Source of the DNA: Obrimoposthia wandeli
Lineage: Eukaryota
Length of the DNA stretch: 64,000 nt
NCBI GenBank assembly: GCA_977020255.1
Contig: CDROCS010000090.1
Coordinates: 62,001-126,000 of the forward strand
Reading direction: 5' to 3'
The notes under the pieces were generated by a model that was not told where the DNA came from, did not search any database, and worked only from the letters and a program-made list of their open reading frames with translations. Of this stretch, positions 1 to 22,800 are shown piece after piece. The position numbers and the translations under genes were made by a program. Every line of letters starts with the position of its first letter. Position 1 is the first letter of the stretch.

Positions 1-9
1 TATATACTT

Positions 10-400
10 CTTATTTCCAGAACTCGCCGCATATAGTGGGGCTGCAATATTAACATAATCTTTAATAAATTTTCGATAATATTTTGTCATTCCTAAGAAT
101 GACCTTAGTTTTCAGTTAGTTTCGGTATAACCTACTAAATTTTAACTGTTTCTGACTAATGTAGCATTTATTAGGGTTTATTTTGAGGCCTTCAGCTGCA
201 ATTCTTTTGATAATAAATTAATGTTCTCCTTGGTTGTTACTATAAATAAAGATGTCATTCAGATATACAATTGTCCCTTTGAACAGCAAACTAACCAATA
301 TTTTATGCATCAGACTCTGGAATGTTGCAGGTGCTATTGCCTACCCAAATGGCAACTGATTGATTTAAAATTGTCCCAATTTTTTCTGAATGCAGTTTTT
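10..400 (-). mobile_element. Ty3/Gypsy reverse transcriptase/connection pseudogene fragment
   Basis: The minus-strand translation, with stops and frameshifts, reads KTAF...LPFG*AIAPATFQSLMHKIL...IVYLNDIFIYS...GLKINPNKC...LRSFLGMTKYYRKFIKDYVNIAAPLY. These are canonical Gypsy RT motifs. Confidence 0.75.
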
Positions 401-1050
401 GTCTGATACTCATATCTTGGCGTGGTCGCAAGTTATGTTTTCTATTGTATAAAGTTAGATTCCACAGCACAATTTATATTATACAGGTATAGGCAGCTAT
501 ATGTGAACAAATCCTTTCAGTAGGATATATCCAGTTTCTGATTACATAACTGAAATGAAACAACTATATTGTATTTCGTAAAATAAGTTATTGAAGCGCA
601 ATTGTTTATAAAGTTTCTTTATCAGCAAAATATAATTTATTTGATAAAACGTTTTCTTTCTTTTATATAATAATAAAAAACAAGAATCAAATAAAATTTG
701 TATTCAGGCTCCAATCGGTTAATTTTAAATTCATTGTTTAACTAGCCAATAATTAACTGGTAAACTGATGGGAACTCATAATTATTTGATACGCATTTTA
801 TTGAACGTCAATATTTTCTAAAAATGTAAAATATTAAATAAATAATTTGATAAATTTTTTTAAAAAAATTATTATTCAAGCGTAAAGAAAAAGTTATGTA
901 AGGATAATAAAGGCAAGAAGTACACCGTACTTAATAAAACATATATGTTAATATTATCTGGCTCAAGAACAACAAATCCAAAATTCAATTTATTGTAATA
1001 TAAAACAAGTTTGTTATTAAATTCAAATCAATTTGTTGAAATATACAATT

Positions 1051-1187
1051 TTGTTAGACTACTAATTGGGATTATCAAAATTCTGAAATAAATCAATCAA
1101 TTATTTCTTGAAAATATTCAATTTTTGTTGGACTTCTAATTGGGATTATCCAAATTCTGAAATAAATCAATCAATTATTTCTTGAAA
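1051..1187. repeat. Two-copy tandem duplication, ~75-bp unit
   Basis: TTGTT(A/G)GACT(A/T)CTAATTGGGATTATC(A/C)AAATTCTGAAATAAATCAATCAATTATTTCTTGAAA occurs at ~1051 and ~1126. Confidence 0.85.
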
Positions 1188-1249
1188 CACAGACATAATA
1201 ATTTTGCTACTACTGTCTAAATAATATTGTTACTTTCCTATATATAGGA

Positions 1250-1800
1250 TGTCACATATCATCAGACAGAAAAAGATTCGGCATACATGCACGCACCAAC
1301 ACAGATGCGCACACTTTTGGGAACCGTCACCAGCTGAACACACGATCGGACTGTGCACAGCAAAAAACACAGCCAATCTGGACCCGCATCTAAATTGTAT
1401 GGGTAAAAACATATTACTATGATAAACTATCACACACATACACATATGACGGTGATGATATATTTATGTATGAGAAGAGATGCGTAGTGAGGATGAAAGA
1501 GAAAGAGTGGGTGAGTAAGTGAGTGTGTGAGTGGGTGACTTTATTTGTGTATGTATGTGATTTTGATTTTATTTTTGCATGTGTGTGTGTTTTTACTTCT
1601 TCTTTGCACAAAAACACCATGTTCGTCGGCAAATGATAAAGGAAGAATCTTTCCTTCTTATCTCTGACTTCGCGGGCAATTGCCCACAGCGAAGTCAGAG
1701 ATAAGTCTGCCATCCCCCTGATGAGCCCTACAGGGCGAAACCGGTTAGGCCGGTCGGGGATTGATCAATATATAATAAAAAGCTAAAGTGCATAAAGATT
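1250..1800 (+). mobile_element. Probable 3' remnant (ORF end plus pseudo-LTR) of a Penelope-like retroelement, or a retrozyme-like unit
   Basis: It carries a type I hammerhead ribozyme, which is characteristic of PLE pLTRs and metazoan retrozymes. One upstream frame ends ...HQLNTRSDCAQQKTQPIWTRI*, loosely like the tail after a PLE GIY-YIG domain. This assignment is inference only. Confidence 0.4.
1712..1761 (+). ncRNA. Type I hammerhead ribozyme
   Basis: The layout is ATCCCC-CTGATGA-GCCC(TACA)GGGC-GAA-ACCGG(TTAGG)CCGGT-C-GGGGAT. The CUGAUGA and GAAA core is complete, and stems I (6 bp), II (4 bp) and III (5 bp) all pair. The GUC cleavage triplet predicts a cut after C1755. Confidence 0.92.
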
Positions 1801-1979
1801 TCTACTTCAAAAATTTCCCTAATTAAGGAAATTTCTTAATTAATTAATTTTATATTTTAATATGTTTTATTTTTTCCAAAAACTGCCTCAACATATATAC
1901 AATTTTAATTAGTACATATAAGTAATATATGTAAGTTATACTTAAACAGGGTTAATATATTAAACAATAAAAAAGAAAC

Positions 1980-2560
1980 TAATGGCATTTGCTTCAATCT
2001 TCAATCTTCTTATTCTTAACATCATATTTATTTCCGGAAGAATTAGCTTTTTTATTAAGAAAAGTTGATTGATTTTGTATATTTTCTTTAGAGGTTAATG
2101 GTTTTAAGTATTTCTGTTGTGTAAAGCATTGTATATCTTTATATTTTTGTTGTGTATGTTATTGTATGTTGTATATGTTTTGTGGTTGTTTCTTTCATGT
2201 TTTCATTTACTTCGATTAAAAACCAGTAACCGCAAAAATTGTGGGATGGTATAGTTTAAATGTTTCTTTTCCTAGAATTGTTATTTTTGTTAGGTTTTCA
2301 CAACTCTTAAATTTGTGTCTTCATTGTCTGTACATTAATGGTTTGTTGATGATCACATATTTCCTATTAGGTATAATTATTTTTTCTAGATATCTTAAAT
2401 ATTTTATTGTGAAATTTGTCTTTGTATAAGATTTTGCAAATTGTTTTTCGGTATCTTTTCAAAATTTAGAATCGAGTCCTCTATATCTAATTCTTGAGGC
2501 CTTTGTCCAAATCATTTTCAAAATTTAAATTTCCATTTTTTCATAATGTTATATATTGTT
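1980..2560 (-). mobile_element. Possible highly decayed Penelope-like RT-thumb/GIY-YIG fragment
   Basis: There are weak minus-strand peptide echoes (QELDIEDSILNFEKIPKNNLQNLI; LILPEINMMLRIRRLKIEANAI) among many stops. Confidence 0.25.
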
Positions 2561-2599
2561 GTACGTTTTGCTGTTATTTTTTGATATTGATGTTAATTA

Positions 2600-2803
2600 T
2601 GCATAGGTTTCTATAATTCTTATTACCATGAAATTACTTATTGAATGAAGAATCTCAGTTAAAGACTGCTTTTTGTTCGAAAACTCATTAATATTGTTTT
2701 AAGAGACTTCCTTTTGTGTTATCTTCCGCTCCTAGTACAATTCAGAGATTAATGAATGTTACGTTTAGCGATTTATTATATAAAGGAATAGTAATATATA
2801 TAG
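2600..2803 (+). mobile_element. Ty3/Gypsy RT fragment, interrupted at the YxDD motif
   Basis: It translates LLNEESQLKTAFCSKTH*YCFKRLPFVLSSAPSTIQRLMNVTFSDLLYKGIVIYI and stops abruptly at the TIR starting at 2804. Confidence 0.8.
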
Positions 2804-3125
2804 AGTATGTGGATGTGTTCGGTCTAATCCACACCCCTCCCCCTGTCCTTTAAAAGCGTACATGTATGTGGAGTGAAATTTCACTCCACACACATGCACG
2901 GTTTTAAAGGACAGGGGGGAGGGGTCCCGAACTTTATTCGCGCCTGTAGGCGCGAATGGCTTGGGATGCGGGGTCTATATAACAGTTTTCCCGCCCACCA
3001 CGCTCGCATCTTGGGATGACGACTATATCCTAGTTTTTTCGCCCCTACCAGGGCAAACCACCAACGGCCCAACCGCCCAACACCCAACCGCCCAACACCT
3101 AATCGCCCAACACCCACTGCCAACA
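2804..3125 (+). repeat. Left terminal inverted repeat with ~90-bp internal palindrome and C-rich repeats
   Basis: It matches the reverse complement of 8240-8465. It contains a palindrome at 2834-2924 centred on GTGAAA|TTTCAC, a hairpin TTCGCGCC-TGTA-GGCGCGAA at 2937-2956, and CCCAACA/CCCAACCG repeats at ~3066-3130. Confidence 0.85.
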
Positions 3126-4499
3126 CCCAATGGAGGTTTACATGCTGTTTGTATTGTTATTGCATTTTTATCTCTTTCAATGGGTGTTAGTTCAGCATGG
3201 AATCTTGTTAAAGCTAAATGCAGTATTGCAGTGCTTAATACAACTTTACTTAATCAAATACGTATTTTTAATCATTATCATACATAAATTGTATTTATCA
3301 TGTTTCTACCATTATCCAATAAGATTTTTGTTGTATATAAACAGTCAACGTTTTGACCATACTTCATTATAATGTCTACTTATAATTATTTCAAACAAGA
3401 TGTTGATTATAATTGTTCAATATGTCAAACAACTCAGGTATAATTCATAAATTTCCTCACATATATCAATAAATTCTAGATTATCCCTTTCAGATTTAGC
3501 CTCTAATTCATCCTAATGTCAATTCTTTAGCACTATTCTTCATTATTGCATCTAAATTTCAATAAAATACTTCAAACATTATATTTTAAAAAAATTGAAT
3601 ACCTAACTTTGATTTCAATTGAAGGAATGTAGAAGGAATAGATGAAATGCTTTAATATTGGCTTTGGAACGATAATATTGATGACTTCGATAAAACTCTC
3701 TTTGAAAATAACTTATTTACTATGTATTAATGAAATAGTTAATTTGAATAATTTTCTTTCTCATTCAATGTCTTAATATTAATTGATTTAAAGTATTTTT
3801 TAATGAAGATAGATCAACATTGGTTCAGGAAACCATTTATATGAACCAAAACTATTAATAGTAATCATAAAGATTTTACCCGATTTTTTATAAATAAATG
3901 ATGACTTTATCAATACTCAGAAGTTGTTTCTTTAAGTTTTCCTTAATACCTATTGACTTATAAGCAGCTATTTACAACATCATTGATTATTTTAAACTAT
4001 AAAATCAATAATTGGGAATATGCACACTAATCGTTATTACTCAATATCTAATCTAAGCCTCTAACTGCTAATACTCTAACCTCGATCTCTAATATTCTAA
4101 TTCTAATTATATCCTCTATCACTATTGTGGATTATCATTTTACCAAAATATATGCGAAACCTTTACAAGGAGATGGTAAAAGTTTGAATAATATCTCTGC
4201 TTTTGTAATAATTGTCTTCGTTATGACCGAAATATGAGTAAAATACTTATATTATGATTAATTTTTGGTATAACTCGCTTTGAAGCACTGTAAAGCTGAA
4301 ATTCGATATGATCGCTTATATCATAATCTTAAATGAAATGACCGGAATATTGATAAAATACGATGAATAATTTCACTATAGTTTTAGAACAGTAGTCTTA
4401 TTTCCCTTCTAAACCACCTAAATATCATAAGTATCTTCTAAATCACATTAAATTTCCTTTCAAAGTCAAATATATCCTATATTTTTTCTTCTGAATCCT

Positions 4500-5620
4500 A
4501 CTAACCTTATATACATCGCTTTTATTTTCATTCAATCTAGCTATCTAGGCTATATTTTCTGATACCTCCTAAACATCCCTGCTAAATCCCTTCTAAACCC
4601 TTCAAAGCTTTAATCTTTCTTCTGAACCATCTAAACATCCCCGTTAAATTTCACTCTAAATTCATCTAATTTCTTCTTCTGAAACCTCCCCATATAAATT
4701 CTCTTCTGAACCAATTTAAGTTATATTTCCTCTTCTGAAACCTCTTGAAATATCCGTTAAATCCTCCTTTAATATCTTTTAAGGTTATATTTTCTCTTCT
4801 GAAATCTCTTGAACTCCCCGGTTAAATTCTCCTTTGAACCCTCTAGGCTTTAATTCCCCCTATGAACCAATTTAGGTTTTTATTTCTTTTTCTGAAACTT
4901 CCTAAATACTCCTTTTAAATACTCCTCTAAACGCCTTTTAAGGCTATATTTTCTGATACCTCCTAAACACTCCTGCTAAATCCCTTCTAAACCCTTCAAA
5001 TCTATAATCTTTATTCTGAAACCTCTTGAACACTTTTTTAATTTGTCTTTTATAACCATTCTATGCATTAATATTTCTTCTATAACCTTCTAAATACCTC
5101 GTAAATTTCCTCTTTGAACTCTTCTATGTAATAAACTTCCTAAATACTTCGTAAATTTCTTCTTTGAACCTCTTAAACACCCCATTAAATTCCTCTTTGA
5201 ACTCTTCTATGTGATTATTTATTTTATAAACTTCCTAAATACTTCGTAAATTTCTTCTTTGAACTTCTAAACATCCCGTTAAATTCCATTCCCAAATACC
5301 TAAATCTCTTAAATAAATCACATCAATTTCACTTCATAATCCAATCTAGGCTATATATTTTTCTTTTGATACCTCGTATCGTTAATTTCTCCTCTAAACC
5401 GCTACTTATTTTATTATCTTTAATCTTCTATGTATTAATTACTCTTCTAGAGAACCTTTTAAACAAATCGCGAGTTTCTCTTCTAAAACTCTATCCATTA
5501 TTTTCTATTCTTAAACCTTATAAACACAAATGTCATATCTCATCTAAATGTAACAAATCTCATGCATCTTGTTAATTTCTCTTATAGAACCTTTTATGTA
5601 TAATTTCTTTACTAGACCGA
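4500..5620. repeat. Degenerate pyrimidine-rich minisatellite (~60-70-bp units)
   Basis: The motifs TTCTTCTGAAACCTC, TAAATTCCTCTTTGAAC and CCTAAACA recur. Near-identical ~70-bp blocks sit at ~4548 and ~4943, and ~38-bp blocks at ~5131 and ~5228. Confidence 0.75.
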
Positions 5621-6886
5621 TCATAATTTATTTGAAGTAATAAATCGACTGGTTGTTGATGTTTGAAAATAAGTTTCTAAGTTTCCATAATATTGATAAC
5701 ATTAATGAATCAATAAGCTTGTAGAGTTTTGTAAGAATTTTCTTGTTTGATATATCGATCAATGAAAAATTATTTTTTGAGAATATAGTTAACAATAGAC
5801 TCAAGTAATATGAATAAATTATGACTGAGATAAATACATACTCTAAACATTATTGAATAAATTATATCAATAAATGATACTTGAAAATAATAATTTTAGG
5901 TTTAAATGAATCGAAAGAGAGAATATAATTTAATCCATTTCTAGTCCTGATGTAATAATTTCTAAACAAAATGTTCCAATATAGTATTGATATCCGATGT
6001 TTACTAGTGATAATTTAATTAATTACTTATTTATTATATAGATTAATTTCCTTAAATAAGCTAATCTTCAAACAATATTCTTTGAAACAAAAAATAGAAA
6101 TGTAAACTAATCATTTTTTAGTAACAAAACTTTTACAGATTCTTTTACAAATAAAAACTTTTTCAAAAGAAAGTAGATAACATTTTAGATTTAATTAATG
6201 AATCATTTTGAAATTTAATAAAATTCTTAGTTAAAGATGCATAGTAAAATTAATAATATACTCTAGATCGTAAATTGACTAATTGATCATAGTAATCTCT
6301 CTAATTATCCGTATAATTGACCGTAATAAACTCTCACTTTGTGATCATTATATACTCTCTTCAAATTATATCTTTAATACACTGAGGAATACTTTAAATA
6401 TGTTGAAGAGAAATCCAATGAGTGCATCTACCATATAAGAAACCATGAAAAACTTTATTGACGCGCTGGCACATAATAATCAACCGGAAATACAACTTAT
6501 TTATTCTGAAAGTAATTCTGTCCTTAAACTAAAATCAAAGAAAATTTATAGAAATATGGATAAATTCACTGAAAAATTATCAATTATTTGCTTTATAATT
6601 TGCATTATTCTAAAAAATCCATGGTAAATTTATCTTCTAATCTATAAATTGACTGAAAATCGAACTTTCTAGTTCGAAATTTACATTATTCTGAAAGATT
6701 ATACAGTACATTTATTAATTTGTCAACTAAAATCACTATAAATGATCTAAGATTCTACTTTTGCATCTTATATTACATTATTCTGAAATATACACGAAAC
6801 AATTTATTCTATAATCCATAAATATAAACATAAAATGATTAAAAATCGAACTTTTTATATCCAAATTAGAATTTTTTCTAAAGTGT

Positions 6887-7339
6887 CATAATGTAGACGT
6901 GCAAGATGCACTGTTATCAGCAATGGTTTCAGATGGGTTATTAGACACATCGAAATTTTCTATAAACCATCCTTTAGCCAATACTGCGATAGGCAAGTGT
7001 AAGGATGAGAGTAAGCAATGTAGATATAAGTAATGGGTACTTTTACGCCCCAAATCATATAGCTTAGAAACTATAGACGGAAAGTCCCAGATGAGAGCAA
7101 ATGAAATTAGCCTTAAGCAGACTGCGCTACGCCATGCAAATTATTTAGCTGCATATGAGAGTGGGGTTAGTGAACGAGTGCAACAACAACGCATTAGTTC
7201 AATTAATCACCAGCTATATACCGTAAATATGAGTAAGATCGCATTGAGTAGCAATGACGATAAGAGAAAATGGGTAGAGAAAAATCGGTCAGTTGTCTAC
7301 GGACATCACAGATATCCAGTTGTTTTTTCACTTGAATGA
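6887..7339 (+). pseudogene. Protein-primed DNA polymerase B (Polinton-type), C-terminal fragment, copy 1
   Basis: It reads DALLSAMVSDGLLDTSKF...IGKCKDESK...*WVLLRPKSYSL...RISSINHQLYTVNMSKIALSSNDDKRKW...VYGH. The GKxKDE, LRPKxYS and DDKR motifs of pPolB are present. Confidence 0.85.
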
Positions 7340-7839
7340 TTGTTTTTGTATGTTTGAATTTATATATCACAAATTTATTGTACCTAATTTTTATCTTTGG
7401 TTTAATAAATATTTGTATCCAATTCGTCTTTGTCTTTTTCTAAGTATAAAATTTTAATTCTAAAGTATAAAAGTTCTGTGTAAAATTATATTTTTAAACT
7501 ATAAAAATTTTGTAAACAATTTTAATTTCTGTTAAAATTTTTGGAAATTTTAAGAATTTTTTAAAGCCATTTTGAAAATTTTAAATTTGGCGCAAAAAAT
7601 TGCGTCTTATTCAAATAAATAATTTTTTTGTAGTTATTTTCACGCCTGGAGATTGAGAATAAAGCCCGCCCGAAGGGGCGGGCGTTTTCTTGGGGGCTGG
7701 GGTGTGACACGTGTCGTCTACATGTGTAGTTGTCATGGTGAGAGGTAGATGGGTAAAGTGATTGAAACAAGTACTGTAGTTATTTTCGTGAGAATAGAGC
7801 TCGTCTTGAAGGGGCGGGTTGTGGGCGGCGGTGTGTTTG

Positions 7840-8215
7840 ATGAGTGTTGTGTGTGTTGTGTGGGTGTTGTGGGTGTGATGTGGGTGGTGTGGGTGTTGTG
7901 GGTGGTGTGGGTGGTGTGTGTGGTGTGGGTGTTGTGTGGTGGTGTGGGTGGTGTGGGTGGTGTGGGTGGTGTGGTTGGTGTGGGGTGGGGTGGTGTGGGG
8001 TGGTGTGGGGTGGTGTGGGGTGGTGTGGGGTGGTGTGGGGTGGTGTGGGGTGGTGTGGGGTGGTGTGGGGTGGTGTGGGGTGGTGTGGGGTGGTGTGGGG
8101 TGGTGTGGGGTGGTGTGGGGTGGTGTGGGGTGGTGTGGGGTGGTGTGGGGTGGTGTGGGGTGGTGTGGGTGTTGTGTGGGTGGAGTGGGTTGTGTGGGTG
8201 GTGTGGGTTATGGGT
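7840..8215 (+). repeat. G/T-rich tandem array, (TGGTGTGGGG)17 perfect core with 9-mer variant flanks
   Basis: There are 17 perfect 10-mers at 7991-8160, flanked by degenerate GGTGTGGGT units. The three overlapping ORFs listed here are by-products of the repeat. Confidence 0.97.
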
Positions 8216-8239
8216 TTGTGAGAATAGAGCCCACCCGAA

Positions 8240-8465
8240 GGGGCGGGCGGTGGGTGTTGGGCGGTGGGCCGTTGGTGGTTCGCTCCGAGAGGGGGGAAAA
8301 AACTAGGATTTAGTCGTCATCCCAAGGCGCGAGCGTGGTGGGCAGGAAAACTGTGATATAGTCTGCATCCCGAGCCATTGGAGTGAAATTTCACTCCACA
8401 CACATGCACGATTTTAAAGGACAGGTGGGAGGGGGTGTGGATTAGACCAGACCCATCCACCTACT
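8240..8465 (-). repeat. Right terminal inverted repeat of the Polinton-like element
   Basis: Its reverse complement aligns with 2804-3125 except for a missing ~70 bp (the inner palindrome arm plus the small hairpin). Confidence 0.85.
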
Positions 8466-8519
8466 ATATATATGATTTGCTCGTATTCCTCCGCTTCTAC
8501 CGTTGCTTCTGTAGCTCCT

Positions 8520-9870
8520 TCTGTACGAGTCGAGCTCATCCAGGATCCGGAGATGTATCGTCTCTTCCGGTCCGGGATTCGAAAGGGTATGACCTCCGTG
8601 AATGAGCACTAGGTGGATGCCATCAACGGTACAGAACATTTGTACATATATGTGAACAATTTGTACGGGTGAGCGATGTCTCAGTTTTTACCTTGTGGTA
8701 ACTTTTCCTGGGTAACTGATCGATTATAGTTGGAGAATATTATTTCTAGCTTAAAATAAGCGGATTTGTCCTGTAGTCGCTTTGCTAATTTATTGGAAAT
8801 AGATTTCTCCATTCCCTATGAGCTACATAGTAAATTCGACGATCTTCCCCTTGATCCAATTAAACAGCCTCCACCAGGGTGTAAGACTGAAAAATTATTA
8901 TTTACACACTACCCTAAGAAACATTATGTTATACATTATATATTGCTACAAATGTATGTTAGACTTGGCGCTAAGGTAGATTTTGTATACAGAGCAATAC
9001 AGTTTGAGCAAACTAATGTTTTTTCAAAATATATTGATAAAAATTCGCTTAAAGAGCTGCAGCTACAACAGATTTTGAGTGAGATTATTATAAACTGAAG
9101 GTGAATTCTTTATTTGAAAAACTCATTGAGAATCTAATGAAAAGAATGAACCTTCGGATTTGTAATACTCCACAGAAGCTGGTAACCTATTGTAGTAAAG
9201 CCCACTTTCGTAGGACAATCGAAATCGATACGGACCTTATCGCAGTTCTAATGAATAAAGAAAATATTGTTTTGGATCGTCCTAGTTATATAGGGCAGGT
9301 AGTATTAGATTTAAGCAAACTTCGTATGTATGAGCTACAATATATGCAGTTGGAGAAATATCGAGCTCAATTTAACTGTGACATTAGAATTTTAGCAGGT
9401 GACACTGATAGTTTTTTCTTGAAGTGTAATAATGTAAATGTTCAAGAATCACTGTTACCTGCTATGATTGGTGATGGACTGTTGGATACCTCAAAATTTC
9501 CAAAAACCCATCCTCCTTATACAACGCTTAATACAGCGATTGGAAATTTTAAAGACGAGAGCAAGGTATTATTGAGTTATAGGCAAGGGATCTTTCTACG
9601 TCCAAAATAATATAGCTTAGAGACTACATATGTAAATCTCAGATGAGAGCTAAAGGTCTTCAACAGACAGGTATTAGACACTCTAATTACTTAGCCGTCT
9701 ATGAGACTGGCGTTAGCGAGCGTATTCAACAAAGTCGTATAACTTCCGTTAATCATCAGCAATATACTATACATTTATCTAAAATAACATTGTGTAGTGC
9801 ATATGAAAAGCGGAAATAGGTGAAGAAGAATCGCTCAGTTGCATATGGTCATTATCTCCATCTCGATGAG
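8520..9870 (+). pseudogene. Protein-primed DNA polymerase B (Polinton-type), polymerase domain, copy 2
   Basis: The stitched frames read VELIQDPEMYRLFRSGIR...YVNNLYG*AMSQFLPCGNFSW...EKLLFT...YVIHY..LQ.YVRLG...NSLF.K.IEN...RPSYIGQVVLDLSKLRMYE...LAGDTDSFF...IGNFKDE...LRPK*YS. It includes listed ORFs 8766-9098 and 9101-9610 and has several stops and frameshifts. Confidence 0.92.
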
Positions 9871-10479
9871 TATATTATAAATGAATGATCATTTATTGTA
9901 TATTTTCATTACGTTTTTCGTTTTTGTAACATAATTTAAATTTTATACCTTTATGTAACGTAATTTTTCCTAATAACGCAAAACCATTTCGTTATTTCGT
10001 TTTTGCGTTATGTTAAGAATAACGTTTTACATCACTAGTAGTTTGATTAAAAGTGGTTTTTAAGAATATATGAGAACCCAAAATAATTTAACATTTAACT
10101 AAGCTAGTAAACTAATTGAATGACAGTATAAAAATACTAATTTAGCGAGTAAATTACTTATATGAGCGTGTTTTTATTTAAATACGGAATAATTAACTAA
10201 ATATCGAATAATTATTAAAAAATCACATACTAAATATATGGGATAATATTAATTTAAAAAATCGTATTTTTTTTCTTCATATTTTTAATATTTTATATAA
10301 GTTTAATCACTTTTTAAAATAATAATTTTGAATTAATTTCAATTTGTTTTGGATAAAAAAATTCTAATTTTTTAAAACTCTCAACTATATTAAGACGATT
10401 AGAAAGTAGCGAAAGCGAGGCAGAAACTATTAGCTATTAGTAAAGACTTTTGTAATTGCTCAAGATGTTGAAAAAAATT

Positions 10480-10900
10480 CAAGTAAGATGACTGGGTTAA
10501 AGAAACTACTTATGATACTGGGCAGGGTAAAAAACGTTTTTCAGGTGTAAGAAAGCGAAAGAGTGCTCAAAAAGGTGTAGTTTAGTTATGAATTTGCCGT
10601 ATCATATTGATAGTCAAATAGGGACATTGCTTAAGTCAGATAATGATTATTATGGAGTCGCAAAAGTAGTGCTGAAGATACAAATGAAGATATTGAAATG
10701 CTATTTAAAACGGGTTGACACAGCCGAAATTGATTTTAAAAAATTGTAGAATGGGAACCATTCAGGTGTAATTGTCAAAGATATTAAAAAATTACCTATG
10801 CAAAATGTTGTTGGAAGGGCTCAAAAATTTTAAAAATTCAAAGCTTCACCAGCCGCAAAAAAAGTCCAATAAGCCTAAAAAGAAAGTGTGATAGAATAAC
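10480..10900 (+). mobile_element. Possible MULE-type transposase N-terminal remnant
   Basis: One frame reads DWVKETTYDTGQGKKRFFRCKKAKECSKRCSL, resembling the W...T..G.K..YRC..C zinc-binding region of Mutator-like transposases. It is heavily degraded. Confidence 0.3.
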
Positions 10901-12592
10901 AAAAAATGCTTACTTTATACAATATTTTTTATCGTCAAAAGTTTTTTTTATCACAACAAAAAATTCACTCATAAATTAGATATTTATTCATTTATTTAAT
11001 TATACTGAATATAAATTGTTAACATTATAAATATTTGCATTTTTTTCTCGCTCACTTAATATTTTGCTCTAGCAAATAACTTTTACCAGTTTTGAGATAA
11101 TTGTTGTTAAAATAATGTTTTAAAATTTTGAGAGAGTGTATGTTGTGATAAATGTATTGTTTTACAGATTAATTTCAGATTATTGCGCCTGAAATAAAGA
11201 TAGTCTATGCATAAATAATTGACCCTCAACATAAGATCTAGTGATATTCAGTTTAGATTCATTATTAACATATGTCATAGTGCAAAGGTACAAGTAAAAC
11301 TATTTTGGGCATTATGGTGTGTGGTGTGGTGGTTTATTTAAAAAGAATGCTTAACCAGAAAATAGTGTGGCTTAGTCGAGATACAGTGTTGCTTCTCATT
11401 TACAAAAAATTCGGCTACAGCCTTCTGAGAACAGCACAAGATAATTCCGTACTTACAAGCTGAGCCCATGCACTAAATGGTTAACGGGTTATTTGGGAAT
11501 ATATGAATACTCAAATTTCGAATTTAAATAATTAATCCAAACTACATTGTTTTACCGTTTTTTTAATTATAATTTTTCCTGCAAAATTAAATAAAAACAA
11601 TTAGTTTGAGAGAAAAACACTTTCTTGAGAAAATAAAAAAACTTCTGAATAGGCTCAAACGCGGCTCAGCGACATTTACTAATTATATTATTTAAAAAAT
11701 TGAATATAAAATTAGACGAAGCGTTCCAAAAGAATCTTCTACACGTTATATGCAGACTAGCTACGAACAAAATAAACAATCAAAATGGTGGATTAAGCAT
11801 CATGAATAAACTAATAATACTCACTTTCTCAACTTATAAATTATTTCGGGAACCTATTTTCTTGTTTTTCATATAAATTTTCGATTTTGGTCTACCTAAG
11901 GTTCAAACCAGGGATGTCAATAATCTCTTAGATAAGGTCAAAGCATTGCGCGATGTTTTTAGAAATTGTTTCTCACAACCTCGGTACCCAGCGGTCTTCT
12001 ACATTGTTTGAATCTCACTTTGAAGGTTCTCATGATATTAGCTAAATTTTGTGTGAAAATATGAATAAATTAAATGAAATATTTATAAACATGTAATTAT
12101 CGTCTTAAAACTAAACACATTCTTATATTTCTTATTCATTGGTTCTCATACAATTATAAACAAATAATATAGTAAGCGCAAATAAAAAAGAACTGTACAG
12201 AAAATCAATAACTAATTGTAAATTCTAAAATGAAAATCTCAATATAGAGTATGGATCTCACGAAATTGCATTACACGCACTGAAATTGAAAGCTTCATTG
12301 TTTCAAAATAAAAATATTGAACTGTTATCTAACAACAAATTTATCAGTTAATTCACTTGAACACTTCCACCAAGATCGATATAGATAGTGTGCACACCAA
12401 AACTGATCACAAGCTGAAGTCAATGATACAATGACGTAGAATTGTAGGCACACACGCACATACAGAGTCGCTCAGAAAACTACAATCAATACATTTGTAA
12501 TCTTGAGCGATGAACAGTACAGTGAATGAGTCATTGATTAACTAGAAGTTCTCCGATTTCTAAAATACATTTTTAACTGGATTTATCGAAAA

Positions 12593-13856
12593 ATGAGTGT
12601 AGTAAGTATTGAGTCCAATGATTCCGAATCATATCAGTGTTCCTTGCTGAATGAAAGTATTAGTTCCTTGCAGTTCGATAAAAGAGTTCGATTTCGGAGC
12701 TATAGTTCTCAATTTACACTCAGCGAACTGGTTATGGTTTCCATTGAACGCCGCGAAGAGTGTCAGCCGATCGATAATAAAATAACCATCGAAGTTGACA
12801 TCTGTACTGCTTTAATTGATGATCAAGTATCACAGTGCAGTGAGAAACCTTTTAATGACGTTGTGCGTTTAGAAGATATGACAAAAAGCAATACATGGAT
12901 TGCGAGGCTCATCAATTATGATTCGTTTGTCGACAAAGATCTGCGTCGAACTGTTCGCGAAGATGCAATGGAGCCGAATAAGCTGTACATGGTGAAAAAC
13001 AGACATTCGTCGAGGACTACAGACAATGTTAGTGTAGAGATCAGTAACCCGGTTCCAGGGCAGCGGAAAATGAAAACGTCGGCGGTTCAATTTACACCTC
13101 GTCACAGTTGTACGACAACAGAATGCGAGGAAGAGGTCAGGAGCCACGTTTCACGGGAGTTATCCAATGACAGCATGAGGAATGAACTGCTCATTCAAAC
13201 TGCCTTTGCTGAGAAAAGCAACATAATTTCGTCGATTGATTTGGACAAAACGAAGAACATCGAATTAAGCAACTTTTCCACTGCACCGAAAGCGAAAGAA
13301 CCGGCCACTGAACATGTGACCGATAAACGTGGAAGACAAATTCCCATAATAGCAGTAGAAATGGACACTCAAAATCAAGGTCAACCTAAAATCCAAGAGA
13401 AAAAGTATGTGGAATCGGACACAATTCCGTACGCCGAAGAAACGGATTTGGAGAGTGACAATGCTGCCTCGTATGCCAAGCGGAACACGTTGTCCAAGTC
13501 TTTGCAGTACTATTTGCCTTTGGCAAGCGGAAATGAACAGGCCAACACGAATCAGCTGACGGTGGAAAAGTCAAAAAGAGAATCTGTTACCACTGACGAA
13601 TGCACCTCATTAGACGAGGACGACGATTCTTCTATAACTCCCGAGTTTCACGGAAACGTTAAATCGGAATTTGATTTCCATGAGGACTTTGATGGCTTCA
13701 GTGACAATTTCAACACAATGCAGTCGCAGGAGTCGAATGGAGAAGAATATGAAGAAGATAAAGTTCCAGAAGAAAATAATGACCAAACACCGACTGCATT
13801 TGATGAAGTGGACGCAAAATTTCCTTCAAACAAGTGGGCGACTTTCCAGTTTACAG
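12593..13856 (+). CDS. Large first coding exon (421 codons + 1 nt), acidic/Ser-rich
   Basis: This is the longest ORF in the window (426 aa to the unspliced stop) and has higher GC than its surroundings. It ends at a strong donor, CAG|GTGAGT. No folded domain was recognised. The start codon may not be the true first exon. Confidence 0.88.
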
Positions 13857-16800
13857 GTGAGTGGTTCTTTTGAAATATTTATCCACACCAATCCTCCAAT
13901 TCTAGAAGACATTTCGGGTCGTATTAAGAACTTAAAGGATCCTTAACCAAAAATGTTTTATTAGCTAAGTAGTCCTAAATGTTTTCATGAAGTACGTTTT
14001 ATTTTGACAAATCCATTACCTAATATTAAGAAAATGAAAAAGAACAATTTACAGAAAATAATATTTTGTTTCACATATTTTAAAATTGCAACAAAATTGA
14101 AGTATTATGAAAATTAATATGAAATCAAAATATAAAAAATAAGTCTGAAACCTAATTATTTTAAATATCATTCTTAAAATGCTCATTCGAATTTAATCTG
14201 CATTGACATTGATTTTATCTTATATTAAATTAATTCAATCGAAAACATAATTATTTAAAAGAGAATTAACTTTATGTTTTTAAAATACTTTTAAATCTTC
14301 TAGTAAATATTTTAATTTTATTAGAACCAACATTAGAACCGACCAAATTCAAATTGTATAATGGAAAAGATAATTATTCGATCATGAAGTAGATTACATT
14401 AACAAAATTTAATTTATGATAATTGATGTAATTTTTGTGTATTCAACTGTGATAATTTTTTTCCGGGTTTTGTGATTACATTTTGTAATTTATTACTACG
14501 ATGTTGCAGATTTTGATTATATTGAAATTTTCAAAAGTTACTTTTTCAATTAATGAAACTTATCTAATTTTCGAATTAAATATTATCATTATAACGATTA
14601 ATAAACCAATTGAAAGAAATTTCAACTTAATATCAACTATCACCAAAACAATATTTTCTTAAATTATATAAATAAATTACATAATGAACTTTATTGTTTC
14701 GATAATTTTTTCCTTAAAATATATATTTTTTAGGTAATTTATTTAAATAAGATGGTTAAAATTCCCTTTTTTATTCATAGAAGTTTTCTCGACAGTGGAT
14801 TTATTAAAGGAATGTTTACAGGCTCGAGTAATCAGCGTCCAATTGTACTTACACACCTACACATGAGGTCCAAATTAGAGACACGTGGCCGGAAAAGTAA
14901 ACCAAAACAATATACACAGAGCTCCATTAACGTATTTTCCACACTCATAATGATCCACTTAAAGGTGATTATTGAAAATAGTCGGAGTGTTTTCTAAAGT
15001 TGAAACGATGCGTGTTTTGATCTCAATTCACCGAGGGTCCAAATAGAGGATTAAATATCGGGATTTATTCTTCTTCAAACACTCAATCAATCCAGGTTAC
15101 ATGGTTCAGAGAACTGTTTCGAAAAATATTCGATAATTGCAGAGTTGACTAGATTGCAGTGGTCACAAAAATATATATAATTTTAGAAAAAGTGTTAACA
15201 AGTACATAATACGATTTAAAAGATAACTTTTTTCCGTTAACGAAATAGCATATTATTAGTCTAACTGTGTTATTCAAATAATGTTATTTAAATTAATCCA
15301 TCTTTTCACGTTTTGAAATATCGACATGGGAAAAGCCCAGTTTTATAGACAAAATAAGGATTGGATATATGTGCAACTGTATATTTAGTTATAATAATTA
15401 ATTATTAGGTACATTCTCTTACGCAAACATGAGATGTCGGTATTGTTTTCTCATAGATTACATTCTTTTGAACTAGAGCCAAGTATTTCAGCTTGCCGTT
15501 TAGAAAGATACAAATATCTTACTAATTCATTTATCTGACCCGACTTATTAATAAAGATTCTCGAGACATTAGTATTTCATAATTTGTATACGTAATATCG
15601 TTTTTGTATATTAATGTCTTCCTATCTACTTCCGATATAAATTTTTTTTACAAATTATAAATAATTTAATAAAATAATGATACAAAATTAAAAAAAAAAC
15701 TTTTTAGGCATAAAATCATAAATTATTGTTGTACATGATGTACAAATTATTATTGTCCGAAATGCAAAATTTTCCCTACAAAACTTATTTTCATCACAGG
15801 TAAAATTTCGATCTTGCACTGTATTATTTTAGGAAAGATAAACAATTAAAATATAAAATGAACGTCTATATTTCTTCCGAATTCTACAATATTAGAACAT
15901 TCTCTTGTCAATAATGGCAGGCTGCTGTTAGTTTGTACGCATATACGTCAAACATACGATATTCCAGTCTTTTGATATCTTCCTGAAAATAATTGAATAA
16001 TAATTGAACATTTATCGAAAGCCAGTGCATCTCAAGCCTATACCTTTTCAGCCCCGTTTGTCTTGTAAATAATTGAAAGATAAGCCTTTGCCGTATATTA
16101 AATTTCCTGTCACTCCAACCATCCAATACAAACATATAATAACTGCTCTTAATTTTCATAGACCTATGTCTGTCTTTAGATTATTATTTAATATAAGTTT
16201 TAATCTTTGTAAGTAGTGATGCAATGAAAGTAAATTTTGTGAAAATGATTCAAAATTGAATCTAAGAAAAACATAAACCTTATTAAAGAAACGATAAGTA
16301 AAAAAAGAACATTTGTCCTTGATGAAAATATTACAATAAACTGTCAAATTATTAAAGATTTATGTAACAAGAAAATACCTTACTACTGAGTTAACTACAA
16401 TGCTGACACATTCAATTATTACATCAAGATTGGATTTTCAAAATTAATTATTGTTTAATATTTCAGCTTTTATTTTAAATCACTTACTAAAACATTTAAA
16501 CAAATCCGTTAGAATTTTATTCAAATTATGGATAAGTTCGTAGACGTGAAAATTTAATGAAGCTCTGTTGACTGTCGATCAATGCCAGAATTGAAATTAA
16601 GATTTTTCTCATTATCAAAAAGGTATTATCTCACAAAGGCTCCAATATTTATATGATCTTCTCTAGTATGGAATATTTGAAATTTATGATCTGAATATAA
16701 ATAAAAATTTAGCGATAGATATAAAAAACAGTAACAATGCGGAAAAAATTAAGAAGCAGTTGAATACATTTTGAACATATTAAGAGAAAAAATGAAAACA

Positions 16801-19800
16801 TGAAGCGAGTTTGAGTAATAAGTCGTAGATTTATTACATGTAGGCGCTATTTAAATAAAATTTATTGTTATAGATTATCTACTTACATTTTAAAATAATG
16901 CATTCATACAATGTGATCCAAAAGTCTCCGTTTCTTAAAAAATTAACTTTATTTACATGAAATGTACAGTTCAATATCACACTAATACTAATCTTCGAAT
17001 AAAGCCCCATTTAATTTTTAATTTCTCCTTCTAATACTATACTGTCGTTCTTGGTGGTGCTTTGTTGTAGGTGTCAGCAAATAAACGATGACCCTCTTCA
17101 GAACTTTTTCTTCGATTGTGTATTCGTTATTGGCCATATTGCTATTCACACAGTGTCAAAATATTTCCAAATAATCAATAAATGCCTGCACACTGTACAT
17201 TATGTTATATCTTTTTAGTATTTATTCTATGAATACCTAATCAATCATAACAAAGATATAAAACCATAAAGTACAATATCATCATATTACATGAACATGG
17301 AATGTACTATCCATATAAATAAAGTATATTTTTCTAGATACAGAGACTTTTGGATCACAATGTCTGTTAGGTTGGCTGTAACCGTGAAGGGAATCCTTAT
17401 TTTTTCCGACCAAACAATTATTAACATAGATTTGTTATTGTGAATTGTAAGTAGATAATGTATAACAATTTCATATCATAATGTAAAATCTGCCATTGTG
17501 AATGTGGCCTGATATTTCCTATGCTCAGAAGAAGACACAGATCTCGAGGACTCTCAAATTTTCCAGGAGAATCTGGTGATGCACATTTGCAGCTATCCAC
17601 CCATGGAGTGGGCTATTTATGAGACCAAGAGGCCGGCCGACAACATCAGTAGGTGTTTTATATTTAACAAACGTAATTTCAAACAATATGCCTAATTTAC
17701 TACGTTTCTTTATGAGTATTACATTTATGTATAACTTACACTTAGGTTTAACTTTTTAATACTTTTAATATATTACAACATAAAAGTTTAACTGAATACA
17801 AATCATTTATTTATATCAAAGATTGTCGACGATTATCTTAATAATCTAATAATGATTTCTATTTCATGTATTAAAATTTTTTTTTACCAGGGACACAACA
17901 GAACCCCCATTTCTTGATAACACCATTAACAACTTGCAGAACAACTTTTATCGCCAACATTCACGAAGAGGGTTCAGCGTACCAATTCCAGAGATCTGAG
18001 TCCCGAACAATTCTGGCGTGGAGAAGAAGGTACGGGATTTTATTGTCTGATCAGCATCATACAAATCATCGACTTGTTTTTGATCGAACCCATGAAATGT
18101 TTAGGAATTGTCCAAAGAATTTCGAATCACAATTTTTATTGATTAAATAGGAAAATTAATTTCTAGCTCGGAATCTTACACTGATTTCAAATATGCTAAA
18201 CAAGACATTTCTGTAAAAAATAAAATATGGATTCTCAAATTATTAGACATGTGTATATACAATATTAGAGAAACAAAATTTGATTTTTTAAAATGACAAT
18301 AATTGTTCGATTTACGAATTTCTCTTTTGTAGGATGTTTTGGTATCTTCTTTATTTAAAAACTATCAAAATTCCCTCACATTGCCGGATTGCTAGGCAAA
18401 AAATGTGTAGATCATTTTTTTGTTTTAGTGTTGGCGCAATTTTAAAGAAAGTGTATAAATTAAAAATATCTTGTAAGTCTATATTCATTCTGATTATTAT
18501 TTTTTATTATTATATTTATAATAAATTTTATAAAATCTGCCAAACTTTTTAATTTAATCTGGCACGCGAGGGCCGCACTAAATGGCTTCGCGGGCCGGGT
18601 TGTGGCCCGCGGGCCGCCTGTTGCACACCCCTGGTTTAGATGTACCTTCGCATTTTCAGAATTGGCAGTTACATTGTGAAAGTAACACAGACATATGTGA
18701 AAAAGTGCTCTTACTGAAGGATATGTGATACTCTTTGGTTTTATTTCGTATGATGGTTTATCAAATATAACTGTTATTGAAAATAAATATGTCCACATAT
18801 TTGAGAATGATGTTTAGGAACGAAAGGGATAATATAATATGGCAACAAGATAATGCTGGACCTCATAAAGCCTGCAAAGCTTTTGATTATTTCAGATCCA
18901 ACAAGTTAATTCTTCTCCCTTGACATGTATATAGCTACAAGTTATCTATAATAGACAATGTGTGAAAGATTTAAAAAAGATTTGTCTATTACACTTGACT
19001 GTGAATAAAAACTGTTTTGATTAACATTTCAAATGAAAAAAATAAATTAAATTATTATTTTTAAAAATTAGGCTTAAACATTTTAATACAAAGTTTAAAT
19101 TCTAAAACGTTAAGTACGATTATTTGATGTTTAGAAGTGCAAAAAAACTGAATTCTCTAGCTGGAAAAAAAATTGCTTAAAAATGTTTTTTTTTTCAGAG
19201 GTTGGTTCCGATAATTCGGTTACGGTGGAGTACCGGGAACCGGCAAAAATTACGGTGGAGCCCAAATTTGGAAGAGAAATCAAACCCAAGCAAGGTAATT
19301 GATGATTCTGATTTATTATTACGATATCAGTCTTGAGATTAGAAAAACAATCTTTTCTATTTGCTTGTTATTTTTTGTTGGTTCAGCATTTTAATTGTAG
19401 CATTTTAAAATTTTCGGACCTAATATTTGATTGTGGTTTGTTTGCAGTAGTCAGAAAATCGTCTGGATCCCGACCTCAAATTGTTTCTCGATCCAAGTCC
19501 AGAGATAAGAGTCCTGAGAAACCTGGTAAGTTTTCTTCAAAATATTTTCCCCCATTTAAAAGGTTGTGGAATTTAAAAAAATGCTGTTTATCGTCTCTGG
19601 CTTTACTTAGACGGGACATTTACAAAACGTTGAGTCAGATGGCCATTTTCGAATGTACAAAATTAGGCTTCTCTATCAGTCCTTCCCATAATTCAAGACC
19701 TCAGTCCATCGGTGTACCACTGCTCTAATTTACAAAATATTGAAACCAGACATTATAAAATTAATTTTAAGCTAAGCTGTTCTATGCGAAAAGTGAGACT

Positions 19801-22800
19801 ACTTGTCATTAGACAGTAGACGAGGAACCTTAAGACAGATCTGGTTCAGCTTCAAGAAGATATTTGTGTTTCTTTGTTTTGATGCCAACCAGTCCAGGGA
19901 AATGGGGAAGGTAGAATATACCTAGGACTAATAGTCAACTAAAATGACGCCAATGTCATTTGCTCAAGAACCATCTTTCGGACGCCATCTGATGCAAGCT
20001 CCAAGAGCTGCTGTTCTTCTAAATCACAGTTCCATCCGACTCAGGGAAGTGCTTGTGAAAGTCATTTTGCAAATCTTCCAAATTCAACGCCATATATTGT
20101 AGTATATCACCACTGCTTTCTTCTGTTGACTGTCACTTGAAGTTGTGAAGGTTTGCGTAAGAGTCTAATTTTCCTGGATCAGGGTGTTTACCTGACAGAG
20201 GCAATTTTGTGATAATTTATTTTGCTTGAACATGAAATATTGAGATTCAGGTTTCATTCAGATGCTTCTCGATTTAAGAATTTCTATCCTGTACCCTGTA
20301 AACTTTCAACATACCACATGGATCAATGTAAATAAATATATTTGATCAGAAAAATGTCTTAAAATACCAAAAAAGAATTCGATTCACAACTCTCTTTCTT
20401 CATTTTTCTTCTTCTACAGTTAATTCTACAAAATTCGTCGAAAAGTTTTTTTTCATATTTTTACTTACTTCGATGCTAGTTTCTCTGAAATAGAACTGAA
20501 GAAACTGCATACTTTAAGAATTAAGACTATTCAAATTTCGTTCAACTCTATTTATTTCTTATGAAATGTTTTGAGCATGAGGTTTCTGAAAAATATTTGA
20601 TTGTAGGTATCAGTATTCTTGAATAAATGGATAAATGCAGTAGAATTAGGATATATGGATACATATTAGATGACATATTTGGAGTAGATTGGTAAATTGT
20701 AAATTTAGTGTTCACGTTTTGTGGTTTTTTCAAACATAACTGACTGAGTGAGCTAGTATTCTTGTTTAATTACATTGTGTTTTCCTTACAACAGTGAGAC
20801 TCAATAAGCTAGCAAGTAGATACATATGTCACTGATTTCGTTAAGACAAAGAAATTAAAGCTCGCATCGTTATTTTCTAACTCATCACATTTCAAACGAC
20901 TACTTCCTAACTAGAAAGATCTTGTATTTTTCTTAGTGAATTGATTTCTAAATTGTCGCGGTTAGCACTTTTTTATGCTAAATCATAAGTATATAAACTT
21001 TTATACAATATCGATAATTTTCAAATGTATATTTGAATTATAACGACATCCCTAACTCATATAATAACTGGATAAATTAACATTTTTCAAGATTTAACGT
21101 AACGTATAAATAATAACGCAAAACAACTATTATAAATATGCAAAATTTTTAAATATATTATAATATTTAAACATGACATAGATTATTTTTAACTATTTAT
21201 TTCTACATTTAGATATAATAAATTTCAGTTTTTATGTATGAAACTCGTTACATCCAAAATGTTTAGTTTCTATTTAAATATAATAATGATAACCCTCTGT
21301 ATAATTTAGAGAAAATAAAAATATTGAATAGAAATTTAGTAAAATAATTCGCAAAACTCAGAATTAAATTTCAACAGAACTAAATGTGATTGGGATAAAG
21401 CTTTATTTGGAATTCATTGAAGTGAAACTAATAACAAGTTTTATTCAACTAAATTTGAAAAGTGCTAATATCTAGAAGACTAGATATTAAAACAAAGTTC
21501 ATCACATTCTCCGTCACTAAGATTTGACTGGTCTACGTAATCGATGAATTTGGTTGGAGCTTATCGTTGACTTGATGATGTTCGTACGTCGTTGGTTTCA
21601 TTCGTGGATTCAGTCTCATCTTGAGAATCGTTAAGAGGAATGTTGCTGGGAACCTCTATGGATTCAGTTTGGTTTTTCTTTTGAAAGAGGAGCAAGATCT
21701 TGAGTTGACACCGTGTCTATTTTTCCGTTTTGGTTTTTTATTTTGGCATACTGTTGATTAGCCTCAATAAGATCGACCTCTTGTACCGAGGGCTCATATT
21801 TATTGTCTTTTACGTGTCTTCTTAGAAGTACGGTTCCTGGTTTGTTTAGCCATTTGGGCAGGCTTCTTCCGAATGCTGATTGTCTTTCGTGATTTAAAAG
21901 TCTTTCACGTGGAGTGCAATTTGTGGAGGTGCACAGTAACGATCGAATAGAATGTAGCGCTTCTTGCAAAACCACTTTCCATGAAGATGGGGTTTGGTTT
22001 CATCTGTGTAGAGTTAAAGATATAGTTTTCCAGAGTGTCCCATTTAGTCGCTCTACTTGACCATTTCCTGATGGATGATATGGTGTTGTTTGGGTTTAGG
22101 TTTGGTTGTGCTTCGTTAAGAATTCCCTGACTTCTTGACTCATACATTGGGTACCTCGATCGGTGTGAATTGACGAAGGACACCCGAACGTGGAGAAGAG
22201 ATCGAGGAGGCACGTTTTTACTGTGTGTGCTTCTATGTTTTTGCAAGGGTAGTCAAACGGGAATCTGGAATATTCGTCTATCATCACTAGAAGGTATCGG
22301 TAAGGGCCGGATTGCGGTAGCGGTCCTTTGAAGTCTATACTCAATATTTCAAAGGGTCGAGTCATTTTATTAGCTGTGACATCTCGGGTCGGTAGTATTG
22401 TGGTTTGAGTATTGCGCATGTTTTGCAATTTTCACAAACGTATCTGACTTTCTTTATAGAGAATGGGAGGTTTTTGCTTCTGATGAAATGCCAGAGCCTT
22501 GTAATTCCTGGGTGGCCCAACGTTTGATGGATTTCAAGAGCCGTTTTGGATTTGACATTTGGACATTGCGTCTGCAGCTAGATTGAGTTTGTCTGGAATG
22601 TGTGTTACGTTGTAGAAATATAAGGACAACTCAAATCTCCATCGAATAATTTTGTCATTTTTAGTTTTTCCATTTCTCTTTTAATTGAAGATAAACGAGA
22701 GCACCTTTTGGTCAGTTTTGATTGAAAAGTGGTTTGTGATCAATATTGATCCCCATTTTCGCACACTTTCGACGATCGCCATAACTTCTTTCTCGATTGA

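What the first reader, a model, noticed from the sequence alone, without database searches (positions are those of the whole stretch)
2791..8490. Polinton-like element appears to split a Gypsy RT exactly at its catalytic YIDD motif
The left flank ends GTA ATA TAT ATA G (V-I-Y-I). After the right TIR and the 6-bp duplicate (ATATAG vs ATATAT), the sequence resumes AT GAT TTG CTC GTA TTC. Removing 2804-8471 rebuilds GTA ATA TAT ATA GAT GAT TTG CTC GTA TTC = VIYIDDLLVF, a textbook Gypsy RT active site. A 6-bp TSD and AG-starting TIRs are Polinton hallmarks, so this both defines the element ends and orders the events. RT similarity fades after about 6 codons, where pPolB sequence begins, so a later rearrangement or a coincidence is possible.
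Basis: partly seen in the sequence, partly recalled or inferred. Interest (0 to 1): 0.7.

Follow-up and report, generated by a model that had tools for sequence, protein, structure and literature searches.

The report
Polinton relic splitting a retrotransposon gene
A decayed virus-like transposon (Polinton type) sits inside the active-site codons of a dead retrotransposon's reverse transcriptase, but the rest of that gene is missing, likely lost in a deletion, and the apparent read-through on the far side is DNA of another transposon, so this is likely ordinary nesting of mobile elements.

Summary
Partly right. 2804-8465 is a non-autonomous Polinton/Maverick derivative: its end AGTAGGTGGATG occurs 24,652 times in the genome, 19 of 25 sister end-pairs carry a 6-bp duplication, and the element is a 9.1-kb family member lacking about 3.5 kb. 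It does sit in the first Asp codon of a retrotransposon RT's YxDD motif, with a 5/6 duplication that shares a base private to this copy. Only 8466-8476 (duplication plus 5 bp) fit the RT; 8473-9851 is the last DNA-polymerase exon of an older Polinton family, and LLVF is an off-frame accident of it. The RT's 3' half was likely deleted. A second, independent Polinton end lies 13 bp away in another copy of the same RT (p about 0.01, noticed after the fact), but a genome-wide pattern test gave 13 events against about 11 expected, none confirmed as RT, so targeting is not shown. Earlier scan notes describe other Polintons of this genome; none describes such a nested insertion. Ordinary nesting.

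The parts
2642..2803 (+). 162-bp fragment of an LTR-retrotransposon RT gene (Gypsy-type by recalled motifs), ending in the first base of the first Asp codon of YxDD
   Evidence: RVT_1 E 7.8e-11 on sister copy L003; window piece itself only E 0.081; median 6.2% substitutions to 13 copies
2798..2803 (+). left copy of the 6-bp target duplication, ATATAG; third base differs from all 12 uninterrupted family copies tabulated
2804..3129 (+). left terminal inverted repeat, 326 bp, with a 90-bp palindrome at 2834-2923 and a subterminal block typical of the 9.1-kb family
3130..8244 (+). interior: right-hand 5 kb of a 9.1-kb non-autonomous family (89.8% to the complete copy on C1037); joined to the left TIR by a junction found once in the genome
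3132..3284 (+). 3' remnant (last 51 codons) of a dual-specificity-phosphatase-like cargo gene
6872..7339 (+). C-terminal tail of a protein-primed DNA polymerase B gene (86% amino-acid identity to a PF03175-positive relative)
7797..8237 (+). GT-rich tandem array inside the extended right end
8245..8465 (-). right terminal inverted repeat (one arm of the palindrome missing); 88-90% to the left TIR, as in the complete C1037 element (89%)
8466..8471 (+). right copy of the target duplication, ATATAT (5 of 6 to the left copy, sharing its private third base)
8472..8476 (+). 5-bp remnant of the RT continuation (rest of the two Asp codons); overlaps the start of the pPolB match by 3 of 4 bases, a likely microhomology junction
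8473..9851 (+). last pPolB exon of an older, different Polinton family (about 11% substitutions to its copies); source of the LLVF codons, read out of frame

Best explanation
The stretch 2804-8465 is a non-autonomous Polinton/Maverick derivative that sits in the first Asp codon of the YxDD motif of a decayed retrotransposon RT, likely inserted at random by an integrase supplied by an autonomous relative, and a likely deletion starting 5 bp beyond the 6-bp duplication has replaced the RT's 3' half with the polymerase exon of an older Polinton. Shown: the ends, the family's 6-bp duplication, the position in the RT, the pPolB origin of everything from about 8473-8477 on, and the loss of about 3.5 kb of interior relative to a complete 9.1-kb sister. 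Inferred: that both ends come from one insertion; mobilisation in trans; the flanking deletion by microhomology; its timing (before or after the insertion is not resolved). The LLVF codons are a coincidence. The locus has no likely function.
For: Family duplication 19 of 25 pairs at 5/6 or better against 1.6% background. 8466-8476 match the RT family at 9 of 11 bases and this copy's own left side at 10 of 11, against 5 of 11 for the pPolB family; 8477-8499 match pPolB at 18 of 23 and RT at 7 of 23; rough likelihood ratio about 600 for 'duplication plus 5 bp' over '7 bp of filler' (assumed rates). Both ends carry a subterminal block seen in 0 of 31 unselected termini but at both ends of the complete sister. 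Left-right TIR identity (89.6%) equals that of the complete sister (89.4%). Substitution levels fit the order: pPolB family 11%, RT 6.2%, element 4.2-5.3%. No RT 3' half in the window or 10 kb upstream or elsewhere on this contig among 22 of 22 candidates. One short-read contig bridges the right junction, 8432-8547, without a difference (may be the source sample).
Against: The duplication is 5 of 6 and lies in an AT dinucleotide run, where slippage can make chance matches. The internal junction 3129|3130 is unique in the genome, so two deletions are needed; one deletion between two separate elements would need only one. ATATAG fits the family's weak target preference poorly (site at the 35th percentile). 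The three bases in 8477-8487 that differ from the pPolB family are all T, as in the RT family, so a slightly longer mosaic remnant cannot be excluded. No empty site exists in the assembly to confirm the reconstruction.
Confidence: 0.8

Rival explanations
1. Chimera of two insertions: one element inserted in the RT and another next to the pPolB relic, and a single deletion joined the first one's left TIR to the second one's right 5.3 kb; the 5/6 duplication is then chance in an AT run.
For: The 3129|3130 junction is unique; flanks belong to different repeat families; the element family is dense and often nested, and 2 other right ends abut the same pPolB family (L163, L171).
Against: Leaves 8466-8472 unexplained (2 of 7 to the pPolB family), whereas they match this RT copy's own target; both ends are of the same uncommon subtype, 0 of 31 among unselected termini; likelihood ratio about 600 against filler.
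Confidence: 0.12
2. One reading: removing the element restores a clean RT active site reading on through LLVF, about six codons of genuine RT.
For: The two Asp codons are indeed completed by 8472-8476; 5 of the 12 LLVF bases also match the RT family.
Against: 0 of 16 other copies read LLVF; 9 of 12 bases and the following 1.37 kb match the pPolB family; that frame has no Pfam match, while the other frame aligns to pPolB at E 1e-15.
Confidence: 0.03
3. Targeted integration: this Polinton group prefers DNA at or just after the YxDD codons of retroelement RT genes, so the position is not chance.
For: A second, independent end of the same terminal type lies 13 bp downstream in another copy of this RT (L009; different TIR subtype, no shared private variants), chance 0.4-0.9% under uniform insertion. 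Of 13 genome-wide events with a YxDD-like codon run within 25 bp of a terminus, 11 lie within 8 bp against 4.8 expected (P about 0.01); 2 of the 13 flanks look RT-like by eye (L201, L212).
Against: The L009 coincidence was noticed after the fact; about 0.9 termini are expected in the 16 fetched RT loci and 1 was found. Total events 13 against 10.6 expected (P 0.27). 0 of 13 flanks hit an RT family in Pfam, and 1-5 RT hits are expected by chance if the genome has 5,000-20,000 RT copies (that copy number was not measured). 24,652 ends with varied flanks show no strict target.
Confidence: 0.05

Closest known systems
Polinton/Maverick elements (PMC8097293, 7 passages read; PMC3014272, 9 passages read)
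   Same: 6-bp target duplication, TIRs of hundreds of bases, AGT start, pPolB sequence; most copies are mutationally degraded fossils, as that paper reports for vertebrates.
   Different: Terminus is AGTAGG rather than the (AGT)2 or (AG)3 motifs in those passages; this copy and its 9.1-kb sister lack integrase, ATPase and capsid genes; the terminus has 24,652 exact copies, whereas the anole paper reports under 10 copies and no non-autonomous ones.
A younger 14-kb Polinton family in the same genome (4 copies examined)
   Same: 85% DNA identity over 6872-7588 (pPolB tail and downstream DNA); 6-bp duplication (read directly in 2 of the 4 copies); AGTAG start.
   Different: Its terminus is AGTAGGGGGAAG with a different TIR; it encodes rve integrase, A32-like ATPase and pPolB. 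Whether it or another family mobilised this element was not determined.
Nested transposon insertions in LTR retrotransposons (PMC6911290, abstract only)
   Same: Nesting is common in large repeat-rich genomes, with weak sequence preferences.
   Different: That study concerns plant LTR-in-LTR nesting and finds coding regions not commonly targeted; here a Polinton derivative lies in an RT coding motif of an animal element, and the host element's 3' half is gone.
Ty3/Gypsy-type RT (PF00078)
   Same: Left flank and its sister copies carry the RT motifs up to and beyond YxDD.
   Different: Only 162 + 5 bp survive here; the assignment to Gypsy rather than another LTR group rests on recalled motifs, not on a tree.

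Membership tests
Polinton/Maverick | 6-bp target-site duplication | tested here: met
   5 of 6 at this locus; 15 perfect and 4 at 5/6 among 25 sister end-pairs
Polinton/Maverick | Long terminal inverted repeats starting 5'-AG | tested here: met
   about 220-330 bp here, about 390 bp in the complete sister
Polinton/Maverick | End motif (AGT)2 or (AG)3 as given in PMC8097293 | tested here: not met
   Terminus is AGTAGG in 78 of 93 termini, one base off (AGT)2; that paper also reports other end motifs, so this is a weak criterion
Polinton/Maverick | Protein-primed DNA polymerase B | tested here: inconclusive
   Only the last about 160 codons are present (6872-7339), 86% identical to a PF03175-positive relative
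Polinton/Maverick | Retroviral-type integrase, packaging ATPase, capsid proteins | tested here: not met
   No tblastn match in window 1-12000 or in the 9.1-kb sister with queries from a related family. Hence filed as a non-autonomous derivative, not as a complete Polinton
Polinton/Maverick | Mobilisation by a Polinton integrase | not testable with these tools
   Inferred from ends and duplication length; coding Polinton genes follow the same terminus within 1.5-5 kb on C143 and C1910, but those regions are nested
Ty3/Gypsy RT (left flank) | RT domain with YxDD motif | tested here: met
   RVT_1 E 7.8e-11 on sister copy L003; window piece 94% identical to it
Ty3/Gypsy RT (left flank) | Domain order PR-RT-RH-INT, LTRs, or placement in the Gypsy clade | not tested
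   Label rests on recalled motifs
Ty3/Gypsy RT (right flank) | Continuation of the same RT after the duplication | tested here: not met
   Only 5 bp fit; 8477-8499 match RT at 7 of 23 and pPolB at 18 of 23

The most novel reading that the evidence does not exclude
This Polinton group homes in on the YxDD codons of retroelement reverse transcriptases, knocking out competing retrotransposons at their active site; two independent hits 13 bp apart in one 17-copy RT family and the excess of YxDD-like codon runs within 8 bp of termini would be its trace.
Probability: 0.05. Interest if true: 0.75.

Novelty: new member of a known kind. Interest (0 to 1): 0.15.

Why it matters
As found, it matters little: one of roughly 12,000 insertions of a very abundant Polinton-derived family happens to lie in an RT motif, and it orders three dead elements (older Polinton, retrotransposon, this element). 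It is a useful caution that a convincing read-through of a few codons can be an accident in a repeat-rich genome. If targeting of RT active-site DNA were real it would be a new kind of conflict between mobile elements, but the tests here do not support that. The genome-wide abundance of the ends (1 per 55 kb, many as 100-800-bp mini-elements) and the cargo of the 9.1-kb family are more worth a look than this junction.

Tried and rejected
Alternative ends 2802-8467 with a perfect ATATAT duplication: rejected, other copies all start at the base equivalent to 2804. Left-right TIR divergence as a sign of two elements: rejected, the complete sister is equally diverged. Search for the RT 3' half nearby: none in the window plus 10 kb upstream, none on this contig among 22 of 22 candidates; none within 25 kb downstream of the L009 insertion either. 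Shared ancestry of this locus and L009: rejected, different TIR subtype and no shared private variants. A subfamily sharing the internal deletion: none, 1 match at up to 2 mismatches. Target-preference matrix from 113 termini: weak; this site scores at the 35th percentile, the L009 site at the 90th. Pfam on 13 YxDD-like flanks: 0 RT hits. Public runs: only 2 contig sets of one sample were found; no listed piece bridged the left junction and no empty-site join could be tested, which is no evidence either way. Rfam microRNA matches at 2831-2927 are below their gathering scores and reflect the TIR palindrome. Paper searches (listings and abstract starts only) showed no report of Polinton targeting of RT motifs; supplements were not read. 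A word search of earlier findings returned nothing.
Full report
Setting. The window is G000:C90:62001-126000 of a 1.35-Gb, AT-rich genome. I did not determine the organism; an earlier scan note calls it a probable planarian, untested here.

The ends. A search with 2804-2900 had 3119 candidates, 40 scored; all 29 other loci fetched start at the base equivalent to 2804, nearly all with AGTAGGTGGATG. That 12-mer occurs 24,652 times against 237 for its reversed control. Among 25 nearest end-pairs in fetched loci, 15 have a perfect 6-bp duplication, 4 have 5 of 6 and 6 have less; 6 is the only perfect length from 2 to 10. Unrelated flanks reach 5 of 6 in 136 of 8556 comparisons. So the ends 2804 and 8465 and the 6-bp rule are confirmed. 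They fit Mavericks as described in PMC8097293 (7 passages read: 6-bp duplications, TIRs of 46-1,447 bp, (AGT)2 or (AG)3 ends, most copies degraded), except that the end here is AGTAGG.

The element. 3130-8465 is colinear with many copies; in all 21 loci where the 3130 anchor was found, interior sequence rather than a TIR precedes it. One complete sister of 9,126 bp with a perfect duplication was found among 12 extended loci. The window's element matches its left 294 bases and its right 5 kb (89.8%) and lacks about 3.5 kb between; this junction occurs once in the genome. The sister carries a TBP-like frame (PF00352, E 2.6e-10), a phosphatase-like frame (PF00782, E 3e-13) and a pPolB tail; only the last 51 codons of the phosphatase-like gene and the pPolB tail remain in the window. 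Neither has integrase, ATPase or capsid matches. A younger 14-kb family with a different terminus encodes integrase, ATPase and pPolB and is 85% identical over 6872-7588. The element is therefore a non-autonomous Polinton derivative; mobilisation in trans is inferred.

One element or two. Left and right TIRs are 89.6% identical, as in the complete sister (89.4%). Both carry a subterminal block found in 0 of 31 unselected termini, 4 of 37 termini in loci selected with the left end and 6 of 31 in family loci. This favours one insertion, but the unique internal junction keeps a chimera possible.

The left flank. 2642-2803 is an RT fragment; the search scored 35 of 35 candidates. Sixteen other copies reach the YxDD region. 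Twelve continue as RT, reading YLDD then ILIYS or a decayed variant; one has a short deletion, one a short replacement, one is cut 9 bp on by unrelated DNA, and one (L009) is cut 13 bp on by a terminus of the same type. None of the 16 reads LLVF. A sister copy hits RVT_1 at E 7.8e-11; the window's piece alone reaches only E 0.081. 'Gypsy' is a recalled reading of the motifs.

The right flank. 8466-8700 has 2475 candidates; the 19 other loci fetched align from 8473-8506 onward, most of them to about 9750-9850, at 83-89%. This is the last polymerase exon of an older Polinton family, which in 3 of 6 extended loci lies with capsid-like and integrase or other core genes; 8472-8609 aligns to pPolB at E 1e-15 and 9083-9607 at 79%. 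Base by base (14 pPolB copies, 12 RT copies): 8466-8476 fit the RT at 9 of 11 and pPolB at 5 of 11; one of the two RT mismatches is shared with the window's own left 6-mer, giving 10 of 11 to this copy. 8477-8499 fit pPolB at 18 of 23 and RT at 7 of 23. The LLVF codons fit pPolB at 9 of 12 and RT at 5 of 12. With assumed rates the likelihood ratio for 'duplication plus 5 bp of RT' over '7 bp of filler' is about 600. Against this: the match lies in an AT run, and the three pPolB mismatches in 8477-8487 are all T, as in the RT. The RT's 3' half is not in the window, the 10 kb upstream or elsewhere on the contig. One contig of a public run bridges 8432-8547 without differences, possibly from the source sample.

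Order of events. Median substitutions to other copies: pPolB family 11% (19 copies), RT 6.2% (13), element 4.2% and 5.3% (20 each). Likely order: older Polinton, then the retrotransposon, then this element; a deletion between the RT and the polymerase exon, at a 3-of-4-base microhomology, removed the RT's 3' half and the older element's 5' part. Whether that deletion preceded the insertion is not resolved.

Is the position targeted? L009 is independent (different TIR subtype, no shared private variants) and is the only other such junction for this family. Under uniform insertion a hit within 15 bp in any of 16 copies has probability 0.4-0.9%, but 0.9 termini were expected somewhere in those loci and the coincidence was seen after the fact. 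A genome-wide pattern for YxDD-like codons within 25 bp of a terminus gave 20 hits, 13 events after merging duplicates, against 10.6 expected from a flank matrix of 113 termini (P 0.27 for events, 0.007 for raw hits). Eleven events lie within 8 bp against 4.8 expected (P about 0.01), an unexplained excess that may reflect a target preference richer than the matrix. None of the 13 flanks hits an RT family; two look RT-like by eye, which chance would give for 5,000-20,000 RT copies. Targeting is not shown.

Comparison and verdict. Three paper searches (listings only) showed nothing on Polinton targeting of RT motifs. PMC3014272 (9 passages) gives the same duplication and TIR features and notes very low copy number in anole; PMC6911290 (abstract) reports nesting as common. 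Earlier notes of this scan describe other Polintons of this genome, with a TBP-like gene and terminal palindromes; none describes this kind of junction. The finding is a real but ordinary nested insertion whose most striking feature, the read-through, is half coincidence. Interest 0.15.

Noticed in passing
L009 = G000:C1910:284884: Independent terminus of the same type inserted 13 bp downstream of the window's site in another copy of the same RT; no partner end or RT 3' half within 25 kb.
   Followed up: yes
L002, L007, L017 at the YxDD codons: Three more of the 16 RT copies are disturbed within about 15 bp of the motif: a break into unrelated DNA with a hAT-like start (label recalled), a short deletion and a short replacement.
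   Followed up: no
L196:3519-4214 (window remnant 3132-3284): Open 232-codon dual-specificity-phosphatase-like frame in the 9.1-kb family; in the alignment to DUSP19 and DUSP22 structures the catalytic loop positions are changed (no Cys at the nucleophile position, no Arg), so likely a pseudophosphatase.
   Followed up: partly
L196:3173-3454: TBP-like frame (PF00352) next to the phosphatase-like gene in a non-autonomous element; diverged TBP-like matches also lie beside the ATPase gene in other Polintons.
   Followed up: partly
genome-wide; L217-L246: Many of the 24,652 ends belong to mini-elements of 100-800 bp with perfect 6-bp duplications, several of 150-185 bp consisting of little more than the two ends.
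   Followed up: partly
L247-L254: A younger 14-kb Polinton family has TIRs of about 1.4 kb that include a second copy of the pPolB C-terminal coding region.
   Followed up: partly
window 1712-1761: Type I hammerhead ribozyme at the gathering score (34.1 bits, E 2e-05), next to a decayed repeat at about 1975-2641; possibly a Penelope-like element (recalled association).
   Followed up: no
window 22681-23516, minus strand: RT and RNase H frames of another retrotransposon, with no DNA match to the family studied here.
   Followed up: no
window 12542-13873: 443-codon open frame without Pfam match, likely a host exon.
   Followed up: no
L163, L171: Two other right ends abut the same older pPolB family directly, and two more lie in the 9.1-kb family itself (L160, L168), suggesting Polintons cluster or nest in each other.
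   Followed up: no
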